From contig JAMNXV010000137.1 of NCBI GenBank assembly GCA_023623185.1, positions 3,511 to 67,510 on the forward strand: a DNA stretch of 64,000 bases, written 5' to 3'. Positions within the stretch are counted from its first letter, which is position 1. Each line of letters begins with the position of its first letter. The notes beneath the pieces were generated by a model, which was given only the letters and a program-made list of their open reading frames with translations, was not told where the DNA came from and searched no databases. This document shows, in pieces, positions 24,889 to 30,093 of the stretch. This stretch comes from Bacillota bacterium. Its GTDB lineage: Bacteria > Bacillota > Sulfobacillia > Symbiobacteriales > Symbiobacteriaceae. The position numbers were made by a program, and so were the translations under genes.

Positions 24889-26757
24889 ATGCGCAGGAAG
24901 ATCCGATCACGCATTGCTCTGAAGCTGCTGGCCTCCCCCCTCGTGCTGATCGTGCTTCTCATCGGCATGAGCTTCGTGAGCAGGTTCGTGACCAAGACGG
25001 TGCTGGGCGAGCTGGAGGCCATCGACCGCAGCTATTCGGTAGCCATCGGGGCCCAGTCGCTCCAGGCCGATCTGCTGCGGGAGGCCAGCGGCATCAGCAA
25101 CTACGTGCTCTACCGCGACTCGCGCGACATCGCGCAGTACCTGACCGCTCGCGAGCGGGTGGCCGCTACCCTCACCATGCTCCTGGAAACGGTGGAGGAT
25201 GAGGCGGCCCGGAACCAGTTCCGCGAAGTCCAGGAGATGCACGCGGCCTACGTCGACACGGTGGACAGAATTCGCCAGGAGCTGCGGGGCCGCGACGAGC
25301 ACCAGGCGGTCGTCATCATGCGGATGGAGGCCGTCCCCGCCATGACGGAGATGACCTCCGCCGTGAACAGCCTGGTGGAGTCGCTCACGGAGGGGGCCAC
25401 GGCTGACCTCTCCGGCTCCCGGAGGCTTGCGCGCATCATGGACATCGGGGTGATCGCCGCCTCGGCGGCGGCGGTGATCCTGGGTTTCGCGGTTGCCCAG
25501 TACATGGCCCGCCGGCTCAGCCAGCCCATCCGGCACCTGGCGGCGGCGGCGGCGGAGATCGCCGGCGGCGACCTGCGCGGGCAGGAGCTGGCCGAGACCT
25601 CGCGCGACGAGATCGGCGACACCATCCGCGCGTTCAACCAGATGGCCCGGAACCTCCACGACGTCCTGCACCGCGTGAGCCAGAGCGCCGAAGCGGTGAT
25701 GGCGGCCTCGGCCGAGCTGTCCGGCTCTGCCCGCTCGTCGGCGGAGGCGGCCGAATCCTCCGCGCAGGCGATCGCGCACCTGGCGTCCGGCGCCTCGGAG
25801 CAGGCGGAGGAGACGGCCGAGGTCAACACCACGGTCGAGCGGCTGCAGGCCGTCATCCGCTCCATCGCCGACGCGGCGGCCCGGTCGGTGGCCGACATCC
25901 GGCAGGCGACGGCGCTGTTGAACCAGATGACCGACGGACTCGACCAGATGGCGCAGCGGGTCTGGAAGACGGCGGAGCGGGCCTCGCTGGCGGAGGAGCA
26001 GGCGCAGTCCGGCGCCCGGGTGGTCGAGCGGACGCTCCAGGAGATGGCGGCAGCCGACCAGGTGGTGGCCCGGGCGGCGCAGCGGCTGAAGCAGCTGGAG
26101 GCGCTCTCCGGCCAGATCGGCACGATCAGCGAGACGATCGGCGAGATCGCCGACCAGACCGATCTCCTGGCTCTGAACGCCGCCATCGAGGCGGCACGGG
26201 CAGGCGAGCACGGCCGCGGCTTCGCGGTGGTGGCCGAGGAGGTGCGGAAGCTGGCCGAACGGTCTGCGACCTCCGCGGAGGAGATCACGAAGCTCATCCT
26301 CAGCATCCAGCAGGGCACCGCCGACGCCGTCGCGGCCATGGAGGCCGGCACGGCCCGTCTGGCCGCCGGCAACGAGCTGGCCGGGGAGGCCGGCGGCTCC
26401 CTGGCGGCGATCCTCGAGGCCATGCGCAAGGCGACGGCCGACATGGAGGACGCGGCCCGGGCGGTCGACGAGGTGAAGGCGATGGCCGCCGAGGCCCTGG
26501 CCAACTTCGAGGCGGTCGCGGAGGCGGTCCAGTCCAACAGCGCCGCCACCGAGGAGCTGTCCTCGGGCGCTGCGCAGGTCACCGCCGCGGTGAACCGCAT
26601 CGCCCAGGTGTCGCAGGAGAACGCCGCGGCCGCGGAGCAGGTGGCCGCCGCGGTGGAGGAGATGAACACCTCGGCCGGGAACGTCGCCGAGGCGGCGCAG
26701 CAGCTGGCGCAGACGGCGGAGTCGCTGCAGGCGCAGGTGAAGCGGTTCAGGATTTAG
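24889..26757 (+). CDS. Methyl-accepting chemotaxis protein (TM-sensor-TM-HAMP-MA)
   Basis: [45 protein letters not shown]. Confidence 0.95.
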
Positions 26758-28067
26758 CGGGTCGCCGTCAGGGCCAGCACCGGCGGCACCCCCGGATCGC
26801 ACAGCCGCAGGAAGTGGTAGCCGATGCCCGCCGTGCCGATCATCAGGCTCGGGTTCGGGCCCCCGGCGTTCACCCCCGAAGGCCAGTCGCCCTTCGCCCC
26901 GTAGCGCCGCAGCAGCGCCTGCGCGGTCGCCGCCGCCTTCGCACGGTACGCGCCGTCGAACCACTCCCCGTACATCAGCACGATCTCCGACAGGCCCGCG
27001 ATGCCGTGACAGAGCGTCGCATCGCCACCCGGCTCCGCCATCCGCGCCGCGATGGCCGACAGCGCCACCCGCACCCCCACCTCTGCCATGCGCCTGTGCG
27101 CATCGGCCCGGTCGGGGTCCAGGCGGGCGGCGAACATCCGGGCGATGGCGATGCCGGGCCCCCCGTGGCACCAGCCCCGCTGGAAGGTCCCGCGCAGGCC
27201 GCCCCCCTCCTTTCGGTAGGGAAAGCGGGTGTCGATCCAGTTGCCGGCCGCGGGGCTGAACAGCGAGTCCTCGAAGGCGAAGGCGCCCCGGGCGGCCCGG
27301 AGCCACCGCTCTTCCCCGGTTTCGGCATACAGAAGCAGGAGGGCCAGCCCGCAGCCGGACGCGCCGTGGGAGAACCCGGTTGCGGGTGGCACGGTGTGCG
27401 AGCCGCTCAGCCGGCTGGCCTCCCACCAGCACATCTCCCCCGACCACCGGGCCTCCCGCAGCAACTCCTCGCCGCACTCCAGCGCCAGGGCGCCGAAGGG
27501 CTCCAGGCCCCGGCGCTTTTTCAATGCCAGCAGGACGGGGATCGCGCCGGCATTGCCGCTGATCACGTCCAGGGTGTGGTCGCCCTCCAGCCCCCGCAGG
27601 ACCGCGTCCCTCAGCCAGGCCACCTCACCGGCCAGCCCCGCCGGCCCAGCCGGCTCCCGTGCCGGCCCGGCGGGTGGGTCCGCGTCGGCCAGCCGGCATG
27701 CGGCGTAGAGCATCCCCAGATGGCCGGCGAAGAAGGAGAGCGGCGAGGCCCCGGTGGGGCTTTCCTGCATGAAGCGGACCGAGCGCCGGAGCGCTGCCCG
27801 CGCGGTCCGCAGGCAGTCCCGTTCGCCGGTCAGGCGGTAGAGCTCGGTCAGGAACAGGGCGATGCCGGCGCTGCCGCCGTAAAGCTCCGGCCCCACCGCG
27901 GCCGAGCGTACGGAGTACCGCGCGAGCAGCCCGTCCTGAATGTCGTGCCGCCCCATCCAGTTGCACTGCTGCCCCGCTGCGTCGAACCAGGCCTCCGCAC
28001 ACAGCCGGCGGCCGATGGCCGCCGCGCCCTGCAGGAGTTCCGCCCGCACATCCGGTGAGGTGCTCAC
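26754..28067 (-). CDS. Stand-alone lanthionine synthetase LanC-like cyclase
   Basis: [47 protein letters not shown]; Zn ligands C/C/H intact; GTG 28067 has the better RBS. Confidence 0.92.
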
Positions 28068-29110: not shown

Positions 29111-30093
29111 GCCGGATCCCCCAGTCCGAAAAGCTCCGCCCGGCCCCGCGCCGGGTCGGCCAGCAGGTTCATGCCCGCCTGGAACAGCAGCACCGACGGG
29201 ACGGGCATGTCCGGAAAGTGGCCGGCGATCTCGTAGGCGGTCTGCAGCGCCCGCACGGCCGCGAAGCGCACGGCCCGGTCCAGCAGCCCCTCCGCCTCGG
29301 CCGCCGGCATCCGGCGGGCGGCGGCGTAGGCCAGCCAGAGGGCCCGCACGGCCGGCTGGATAACCGGGAGCGGAAAGCGCGCGCCGGCCACCATCTCGGG
29401 CAGCGGCCGCTCGTGGGGCATGGAGACCACCCAGAAGAAGAGGAAGTCGTTCAGGGCGCCGGCCAGGTCCCAGGCCGGATCGCCGACCTGCACCAGCTCC
29501 CAGTCGACCAGGAGCAGCCGCTCGCCGCCCCGGCCGTTCGGGATCGTGAGGCAGTTGTCCATCTTCACGTCCCCGTGAATCACCGTTTCGGCCCGCCAGA
29601 GGCTGCGCAGGCCGTCCAGGCGTTCGAAGACCTCCGGCCTCGCCTGCATCTGCCGGACCATCTCCCGGTTGGCGGCGCTCATGCCGGCCAGCGTCTCCAG
29701 ACGGGGACGGTGAAGCGTGAAGCTCCAGGGCAAGGCCCGGCCGAGCCACGCCAGGGCCGGGTCTCCTACCGGGTCGAGCCCCCGGAAGGCGTCATGAACA
29801 CAGGCCAGGGCCCGGCCCACCTGCGCCGCCGCGCCGGTCGGGAACGCCTCGGGGCCGGACTGCTGGTAGCGCCGCCACAGGGGCGCCGCATCGGGCAGGA
29901 GCTCCAGGATCAGCAGCGGCTGCGCCGGGTCAGCATGGCAGAGCCGGGGGATCAGGGACCGCACCCGCTCGGCCTCAGGCGCCTGCCAGCACCAGGCGTA
30001 GAACCGGGCCAGGCCGAGCGAGTCGCTGGTCAGGTCGCCGGAAAGGAAATCGGCTCCGTCGAACATGGGCTTACGGGGCTTGTGCTCGGACAC
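29107..30093 (-). CDS. APH-like phosphotransferase (LanK-type kinase), apparently shortened N-lobe
   Basis: IHGDVKMDN, LVDWEL, GDPAWDL; GTG at 30093 after GGGGTGA. Confidence 0.85.
   Translation of the reverse strand: MSEHKPRKPMFDGADFLSGDLTSDSLGLARFYAWCWQAPEAERVRSLIPRLCHADPAQPLLILELLPDAAPLWRRYQQSGPEAFPTGAAAQVGRALACVHDAFRGLDPVGDPALAWLGRALPWSFTLHRPRLETLAGMSAANREMVRQMQARPEVFERLDGLRSLWRAETVIHGDVKMDNCLTIPNGRGGERLLLVDWELVQVGDPAWDLAGALNDFLFFWVVSMPHERPLPEMVAGARFPLPVIQPAVRALWLAYAAARRMPAAEAEGLLDRAVRFAAVRALQTAYEIAGHFPDMPVPSVLLFQAGMNLLADPARGRAELFGLGDPA

What the first reader, a model, noticed from the sequence alone, without database searches (positions are those of the whole stretch)
26754..30093. Orphan kinase + HopA1-like lyase + stand-alone LanC cyclase operon with no local precursor
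Seen: three co-oriented, tightly linked genes (ATGA overlap at 29107-29110, 17-bp gap to lanC) with APH-kinase, HopA1-like and LanC motifs; the LanC Zn ligands and catalytic His are intact. Known: kinase + HopA1-like pairs act as the split Ser/Thr dehydratase (LanK/LanY) of class V lanthipeptides and thioamitides, and LanC forms thioethers; class V clusters normally also carry LanD and a precursor. Here there is no precursor, LanD, protease, exporter or immunity gene, and I found no Ser/Thr/Cys-rich small ORF with an RBS in 30094-30417. Inference: a three-protein split lanthionine synthetase acting on a distant precursor, or a protein-directed modification system (phosphorylation, elimination, thiol addition, as eukaryotic LanCL proteins do with glutathione), or a decaying cluster.
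Basis: partly seen in the sequence, partly recalled or inferred. Interest (0 to 1): 0.82.

Follow-up and report, generated by a model that had tools for sequence, protein, structure and literature searches.

The report
Ring-peptide cluster broken by deletion
These three genes match a known enzyme set that likely builds sulfur-bridged ring peptides, but here a 496-base deletion has removed most of the peptide gene and the front of the kinase, so the pathway is likely dead in this genome, while an intact copy exists in other samples of the same organism.

Summary
The genes, overlap and motifs are real, but the operon is not a true orphan. The first 30 codons of the 'kinase' are the leader of its own precursor peptide. 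A 496-bp deletion between 7-bp direct repeats (30004-30010) fused that leader in frame to a kinase lacking its first ~70 residues, including the conserved ATP-site Arg, Lys and Glu. The deletion is no assembly error: contigs of 5 of 6 DNA runs bridge it. The intact allele appears as a minor branch in the sixth run and as a 907-bp contig in an RNA-labelled run; its precursor carries two CCWxVVATTxC cassettes. Kinase + HopA1-like lyase + stand-alone LanC is the published class Vb lanthipeptide route (Smo; Pei 2022, seen only through citing papers). The trio occurs in 40 of 47 related loci across many phyla, 37 of 43 assessable loci have an adjacent precursor candidate, and no protease or exporter recurs. 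This scan already noted multi-core class Vb clusters on other DNA. Of interest: the multi-core CCW-ATT precursor family, a sigma-K-like promoter, and a loss allele that seems common. Verdict: a relic allele of a variant of a known system.

The parts
30163..30191 (-). sigma-K-like promoter (AACC, 17 nt, CATAGAGT), 69 nt before the precursor start; predicted
   Evidence: Same motif at the same place in G002 and L068, absent in G008; 51 matches in G000, one before sigK itself
30099..30105 (-). ribosome-binding-site-like GGGGTGA of the precursor gene
   Evidence: Sequence; aligned with the G002 precursor upstream region
30004..30093 (-). Remnant of the precursor gene: GTG start and 30-codon leader with the DFLSGDL motif, now fused in frame to the kinase
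   Evidence: Aligns to the G002 precursor N-terminus; residues 10-30 identical to the first 21 residues of the intact precursor P0269
30004..30010 (-). Deletion junction: single copy of the 7-bp direct repeat GGCCCGG; 496 bp lost (two cores, acidic tail, spacer, kinase N-terminus)
   Evidence: X18 contig maps 30149-30004 at record 1-146 and 30010-29850 at record 636-796; X4 branch leaves at 30010
29107..30010 (-). lanK remnant: APH-fold kinase without its first ~70 residues; HGD..N and DWE motifs kept; predicted inactive
   Evidence: model of the intact relative, best match LxmK
28085..29110 (-). lanY: HopA1-like phosphoSer/Thr lyase, 341 aa, open; R182, K213, R223, Y230 kept
   Evidence: Pfam PF17914; family profile hits LxmY 9dk1_B at E 3.4e-23
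26754..28067 (-). lanC: stand-alone zinc-type cyclase, 437 aa, open; H234, C300, C353, H354 kept
   Evidence: Pfam PF05147; aligns to the LicM2 cyclase domain

Best explanation
The locus is a four-gene cassette (precursor, LanK-type kinase, LanY-type lyase, LanC cyclase) that would make thioether-ringed peptides by the class Vb route, and in this genome a 496-bp deletion between 7-bp repeats has removed the precursor cores and the kinase N-terminus, likely inactivating it. Shown: the deletion, its endpoints, the in-frame leader-kinase fusion, the loss of the conserved Arg43, Lys60 and Glu76 (G002 numbering), an intact allele in the same organism, and a precursor of about 92 aa with two CCWxVVATTxC cassettes and a short acidic tail. 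Inferred for the intact allele: LanK binds the (F/Y)LxGx(I/L) leader motif and phosphorylates the core Thr/Ser; LanY eliminates phosphate to give Dhb/Dha; zinc LanC adds the core Cys thiols. The Cys1/Cys2 to Thr8/Thr9 spacing (i, i+7) suggests overlapping, staple-like MeLan rings in each cassette. Transcription is likely from a late-sporulation sigma-K promoter. Inferred for this allele: the deletion arose by recombination or slippage at the microhomology; no phosphorylation and no substrate remain, so LanY and LanC are stranded.
For: G002 and G008 have a precursor directly upstream of a full-length kinase; their DNA matches to the window stop at 30010 and 30024. X18 contig: 496 extra bases between two copies of the 7-mer; X4 minor branch (depth 6.0 against 31.5) whose loose end reads as the kinase segment just before the junction. 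P0269, from a Logan contig of the same 907-bp length, starts with 21 residues identical to the window and continues into two cores. The arithmetic gives a 100-bp spacer, against 101 bp in G002. 5 of 6 DNA runs have one contig across the junction. 105 of 115 kinase homologues keep the N-terminal lobe; R43 and K60 are at least 90% conserved. LxmK's ATP-binding residues are Arg49 and Lys66, the same 17-residue spacing, and LxmK is the best fold match of the intact relative. dN/dS against G002 is 0.29-0.39, so the genes were under purifying selection for most of their divergence. K-Y-C order is kept in 40 of 47 loci.
Against: No biochemistry: neither the activity of the intact set nor the inactivity of the fusion was tested. 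The intact DNA between the repeats was not read; the link of P0269 to the X18 contig rests on equal length and the 21-residue identity. The fusion is in frame, lanY and lanC are unbroken, the promoter motif survives, and the deleted form dominates the DNA runs laid, which a useful allele would also show. G000 is 88% complete, so a second kinase or precursor could be unassembled. dN/dS is about twice that of the one flanking gene measured (0.15). G008 lacks the sigma-K-like motif.
Confidence: 0.85

Rival explanations
1. The deletion made a new, working module: the fused leader keeps the complex switched on, the truncated kinase serves as a scaffold for LanY, and LanY with LanC convert phosphoproteins made by other kinases (for instance spore-coat proteins) into dehydro residues and thioethers.
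For: In-frame fusion keeps the whole leader motif; C-lobe, lanY and lanC are intact; LxmK contacts LxmY through helices 6-8, in a part that is likely retained here; fusion proteins are on record on 13 contigs.
Against: An in-frame join has a 1-in-3 chance anyway; conserved ATP-site residues are gone; another lineage lost the same kinase differently, after about 25 codons (L068); G003 has an empty site; the one RNA-labelled run laid shows the intact allele; fusion variants carry scattered substitutions, one a Val to Asp.
Confidence: 0.05
2. LanY and LanC still work in trans with another kinase and a distant precursor in this genome.
For: Both genes are intact; the assembly is 88% complete in 226 contigs.
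Against: No match to the kinase N-lobe (best E 0.62) or to the precursor profile outside the junction; only one HopA1-like and one LanC gene in G000.
Confidence: 0.04
3. The 496-bp segment is a reversible or programmed excision, so that both forms arise within one lineage.
For: Both forms stand in one run (X4), and the breakpoints are direct repeats.
Against: Repeats of 7 bp in 72% GC DNA are typical of accidental deletion; no recombinase gene lies next to the site; the segment is only precursor and kinase sequence; a strain mixture explains X4.
Confidence: 0.03
4. The junction is an assembly artefact.
For: The genome is a fragmented assembly, and two of the bridging runs (X6, X12) were flagged as possibly the source of this DNA.
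Against: X5, X8 and X17, from three further studies, also bridge it in one contig; a 7-bp repeat cannot collapse a graph of 31-letter words.
Confidence: 0.02

Closest known systems
Class Vb lanthipeptide pathway (SmoA with LanK, LanY and the LanC cyclase SmoC; Pei et al. 2022, JACS 144:17549; not held, seen through PMC11186320, PMC12291118, PMC12328550)
   Same: Stand-alone PF01636 kinase + PF17914 lyase + dedicated LanC, no LanD/LanX; product expected to hold only (Me)Lan rings, possibly overlapping staple-like rings as in mSmoA.
   Different: Here the allele is broken. The intact precursor has 2 (relatives 2-5) tandem CCWxxxATTxC cassettes rather than, as far as the citing papers show, one core. 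The host is an endospore former related to Symbiobacterium, and the family spans many phyla, whereas the 2025 review names only actinobacteria for class V. Sequence closeness to SmoK/Y/C could not be tested.
Class Va dehydratases LxmK/LxmY (lexapeptide; PDB 9DK1-3) and CaoK/CaoY (cacaoidin)
   Same: Best fold match of the intact kinase is LxmK (E 7.5e-14, TM 0.67, 23% identity); the lyase profile hits LxmY; the residues that appear to match CaoY R187, K219, R229 and Y236 by motif and spacing are kept.
   Different: No LanD or LanX, so no AviCys; has LanC; scores 78-97 bits on the LxmK model, cut-off 315.
Class II LanM and class IV LanL synthetases
   Same: Zinc-type LanC cyclase; best sequence match is the LanM cyclase domain (LicM2).
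   Different: Separate polypeptides with a HopA1-type lyase; in 16 of 47 related loci lyase and cyclase share one ORF, with the kinase separate.
Eukaryotic LanCL thiol-adding proteins (glutathione role recalled)
   Same: Stand-alone LanC fold (weak hit to 3t33).
   Different: Here LanC sits with a dehydratase pair and a dedicated Cys/Thr-rich precursor gene.

Membership tests
Class Vb lanthipeptide pathway | Stand-alone, complete LanK kinase (PF01636): window allele | tested here: not met
   First ~70 residues with R43, K60, E76 deleted
Class Vb lanthipeptide pathway | Stand-alone, complete LanK kinase: intact relative G002 | tested here: met
   APH 64.7 bits; best fold match LxmK
Class Vb lanthipeptide pathway | Stand-alone LanY lyase (PF17914) with catalytic Arg/Lys/Tyr | tested here: met
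   CaoY residues, matched by motif and spacing
Class Vb lanthipeptide pathway | Dedicated LanC cyclase in the cluster | tested here: met
   PF05147 157 bits; His and Cys/Cys/His motifs
Class Vb lanthipeptide pathway | Precursor with Ser/Thr and Cys core: window allele | tested here: not met
   Only the 30-codon leader remains; no cores found elsewhere
Class Vb lanthipeptide pathway | Precursor with Ser/Thr and Cys core: intact allele and relatives | tested here: met
   P0269, G002, G008; candidates at 37 of 43 loci
Class Vb lanthipeptide pathway | Product holds LanC-directed (Me)Lan rings and no AviCys | not testable with these tools
   Needs co-expression and mass spectrometry
Class Vb lanthipeptide pathway | Orthology to SmoK/SmoY/SmoC | not testable with these tools
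   Paper not held; no Smo sequence came from any call
Class Va lanthipeptide / thioamitide | LanD decarboxylase and LanX in the cluster | tested here: not met
   Only four genes in the cassette; no further family recurs across phyla in 49 loci; window flanks are chemoreceptors
Class II / IV lanthipeptide synthetase | Dehydration and cyclisation in one polypeptide | tested here: not met
   Three ORFs; LanM and LanL models match only the cyclase and stay below cut-off
Protein-directed LanCL-like system | No dedicated peptide substrate gene | tested here: not met
   Adjacent precursor in the intact allele and most relatives
sigma-K regulon | -35 AC and -10 CATAnnnT promoter used by sigma-K RNA polymerase | tested here: inconclusive
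   Motif present in 3 of 4 related upstream regions and before sigK, but control motifs give 15-48 genome hits against 51; no start site mapped

The most novel reading that the evidence does not exclude
The intact cassette is a sigma-K-driven, exporter-free system of the sporulating mother cell that staples a multi-cassette CCWxxxATTxC polypeptide with overlapping thioether rings and builds it, cut or uncut, into the spore surface or releases it at mother-cell lysis: a lanthipeptide tied to endospore development, with producers and deletion-carrying non-producers side by side in compost and sludge populations.
Probability: 0.2. Interest if true: 0.7.

Novelty: new variant of a known kind. Interest (0 to 1): 0.36.

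Why it matters
The strange 'orphan' reading falls away: this is a broken allele of a published enzyme architecture, and a warning that a leader-enzyme fusion can hide a precursor from annotation. What remains useful: class Vb had one characterised product as of 2024 (PMC11186320). The intact allele and its relatives give ready enzyme-substrate pairs, among them a conserved multi-cassette CCWxxxATTxC precursor family with no Pfam or NCBIfam model, spread over distant phyla, and enzymes from a host likely to be thermophilic (recalled for the genus). The lack of protease and exporter genes across the family, the sigma-K-like promoter and repeated loss in one genus make the function of these peptides testable.

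Tried and rejected
Stand-alone small precursor ORF in 30094-30417: none convincing; the precursor start lies at 30093. Whole-genome tblastn with the G002 precursor gave only low-complexity hits and filled the output; the six-frame CCW motif scan gave only out-of-frame-looking hits. Exact 22-mer search of JGI metagenomes for same-species loci: 0 hits. No full-length kinase above 90% identity among 115 homologues or the 9 cluster members read, so the intact kinase of this species was not recovered as a protein. sigma-70 promoter and terminator scan of 30050-30450: none. Repeat search of 26000-31000: nothing above GC-rich background, no IS ends. The neighbouring S9 peptidase as leader protease was rejected as a cluster part: it stands at this locus also in G001 and G003, where no HopA1-like gene was found, and does not recur in the 47 distant loci. 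Precursors had no significant Pfam or NCBIfam hit. The long-leader domain had no structural match: Foldseek none at E <= 0.001, best Z 3.6; Atlas hits under 0.9; this does not show a new fold. The RNA contig begins at 30149, just behind the predicted -10 element, but contigs cannot show a start, so it was not counted. Paper searches for a sporulation link or this genus found nothing relevant. No complex prediction was run, since LanK-LanY is a solved pair.
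Full report
OBSERVATION. The three minus-strand ORFs, the ATGA overlap (29107-29110) and the 17-bp gap are as described. Pfam gives APH (E 3.8e-8, residues 37-219), HopA1 (143.6 bits) and LANC_like (157.2 bits). NCBIfam's best models are LxmK (78 bits, cut-off 315, matched only from profile position 73) and the LanM cyclase part. 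LanC keeps H234, C300, C353 and H354; the lyase keeps R182, K213, R223 and Y230, invariant or nearly so in 57 homologues and matching by motif and spacing the CaoY residues R187, K219, R229 and Y236. The closest named lyase homologue is labelled Symbiobacterium terraclitae (63% identity), and G000 encodes sigma-K, so the host is likely an endospore former of that group. The genome is 88% complete.

THE MISSING PRECURSOR. A HopA1-like gene was found in 3 of 40 relatives. In G002 (same genus, same locus) a 234-codon ORF lies directly upstream of a 376-aa kinase; it has two CCWxxVATTxC cassettes and a long acidic tail. G008 has a 126-aa ORF with three cassettes. The first 30 codons of the window's 'kinase' align with the start of the G002 precursor, and the rest with the G002 kinase from ARFYAW onward. 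DNA similarity to G002 stops at 30010. So the window ORF is a precursor leader fused to a headless kinase.

THE DELETION IS REAL, AND AN INTACT ALLELE EXISTS. Of 24 runs listed I laid 7, all as contigs. In 5 of 6 DNA runs (X5, X6, X8, X12, X17; five studies) one contig bridges the junction; X6 and X12 were flagged as possibly this DNA's source. X4 forks at the junction: the main path (depth about 31.5) follows the window, and a 322-bp branch (depth 6.0) leaves at 30010 with a loose end that reads as the kinase segment preceding the junction in G002. In the RNA-labelled run X18 a 907-bp contig maps to 30149-30004 (record 1-146) and to 30010-29850 (record 636-796): the 7-mer at 30004-30010 occurs twice, 496 bases apart. 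A profile search with five precursor rows returned 21 proteins, among them P0269 (83 aa, from a 907-bp Logan contig), whose first 21 residues equal window residues 10-30 and which continues into two cassettes and a short acidic tail. That it comes from the X18 contig is inferred from length and identity. The lengths add up to a 100-bp spacer, against 101 bp in G002. Tables were cut and contigs drop rare variants, so minor intact branches may be hidden in other runs; an RNA label does not prove transcription. The fused protein is on record as four 319-aa variants on 13 contigs; five 237-aa calls on 14 contigs start further down; none of the 9 cluster members is full length. Neither the kinase N-terminus (best E 0.62) nor the cores were found elsewhere in G000.

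EFFECT ON THE KINASE. 105 of 115 homologues match the family profile from position 35 or earlier; the window protein from 69 (the other ten include the window's own cluster and short or partial records). In a model of the G002 kinase (pLDDT 90.5) the lost part holds three N-lobe strands and half of the following helix, with R43, K60 and E76, each at least 90% conserved in 20 rows. The model's best match is LxmK, whose ATP-binding residues are Arg49 and Lys66 (PMC12291118, passages). Inactivity is therefore inferred, not shown. dN/dS against G002 is 0.31, 0.39 and 0.29 for K, Y and C, against 0.15 for one flanking gene (rough NG86): selection acted for most of the divergence, which fits a recent loss. 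Loss recurs: G003, a complete genome, has an empty site, and metagenome locus L068 has an intact precursor but a kinase that breaks off after about 25 codons, with an integrase 1.4 kb from the precursor.

THE FAMILY. A lyase alignment fetched 47 loci from GTDB genomes (Acidobacteria, Planctomycetes, Myxococcota, Actinobacteria, Proteobacteria, Bacteroidota, two archaea). 46 have the kinase, 40 all three enzymes in K-Y-C order, and in 16 lyase and cyclase share an ORF. I dropped 4 loci (one without kinase, three at contig edges). Of 43, 31 have an adjacent ORF with a ~110-aa leader domain ending in (F/Y)LxGxI (profile seeded with 16 of them; four have no Cys in the core, two of these at loci without LanC), 6 have a short candidate picked by eye, and 6 have none. 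Besides the cassette no gene family recurs across phyla, so absence of protease, exporter and LanD is the family norm. The window's type, CCWxxxATTxC in 2-5 copies, forms a tight family (21 rows). Of 10 metagenome loci, 6 have the kinase directly downstream (3 with all three enzymes), 2 end at the contig edge, 1 shows no kinase in 0.8 kb, and 1 is L068.

MECHANISM. Inferred from class V enzymology (PMC9486802, passages and part of Results; PMC12141560, passages): LanK phosphorylates core Thr/Ser, LanY eliminates phosphate, LanC adds Cys. The i, i+7 spacing of CC and TT suggests overlapping staple-like rings; the pattern is a prediction. How cassettes are released is unknown.

PROMOTER. [AC]AC[AC]-16/17-CATAnnnT lies 66-78 nt before the start in the window, G002 and L068 but not G008; shuffles match in under 0.1%. 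The three are kin and the motif was chosen after seeing the conserved bases. Its form agrees with sigma-K promoters (-35 AC, -10 CATATAAT; PMC3789822, passages; PMC517825, passages). G000 has 51 matches against 15-48 for six control motifs. Of 34 matches followed by an ORF I hand-picked 11: sigK itself, phosphosulfolactate synthase, a SleB-like hydrolase, an amidase, a SipL/SPOCS protein, a weak spore-coat match, three sugar enzymes and two without hit. This is a lead.

WHAT IS KNOWN. LanK + LanY + dedicated LanC is class Vb, with mSmoA its only member as of 2024 (PMC11186320, passages; PMC12291118; PMC12328550, passages). Pei et al. 2022 was not held; I recall that it surveyed over 240 LanC-bearing clusters, so its text and supplements may already list this family. 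Ten searches (listings only unless named above) showed no report of multi-core class Vb precursors, of this genus, or of a sigma-K link; most subscription journals are not covered. The scan noted multi-core class Vb clusters in another genome; nothing by sequence or place.

VERDICT. The intact cassette works like class Vb and meets its testable genetic features; the window's allele fails two of them because of the deletion. New variant of a known kind; interest 0.36.

Noticed in passing
L010-L056, ORFs upstream of the kinase (e.g. L029:8294-8836, L012, L019, L030): 31 loci carry precursors with a ~110-aa leader domain that folds confidently (pLDDT 86.7; seven strands and a final helix bearing the FLxGxI motif), without Pfam, NCBIfam or PDB match, followed by up to ~480 aa of repeated Cys/Thr-rich cores.
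   Followed up: partly
L030:7944-12302 and L053:8469-12273: K-Y-C trio in two archaeal assemblies (Nitrososphaeraceae with a long-leader precursor; Thermoplasmatota without a clear one); binning not checked.
   Followed up: no
L020, L021, L022, L024, L025, L031, L034, L037, L038, L040-L045, L056: Lyase and cyclase share one ORF in 16 loci, with the kinase separate; L022 has two clusters within 10 kb.
   Followed up: no
L036:8467-8859 and L039:8470-8862: Kinase and lyase without LanC, next to long-leader precursors whose cores have Thr/Ser but no Cys: possibly dehydro-peptide-only systems.
   Followed up: no
L068:7950-8545, integrase 9735-10817: Related locus with intact precursor and promoter motif but a kinase cut after about 25 codons: an independent loss.
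   Followed up: partly
L007:12122-12600: The G002 precursor ends in a ~140-aa Gly/Asp/Glu/Ser-rich tail; the same tail is 10-50 aa in P0269, P0271 and L068.
   Followed up: no
window 24889-26757 and 30418-32286: Two paralogous 622-aa chemoreceptor genes flank the cassette on the opposite strand; both are absent from this locus in G002, and G003 has only the first.
   Followed up: partly
window 21643-23808: S9 prolyl-oligopeptidase-family gene 3 kb from lanC; also at this locus in relatives without the cassette.
   Followed up: yes
window 29210: All four runs read A where the window has T (Asp here, Val in most variants of the kinase tail): a private change or an error in this assembly.
   Followed up: no
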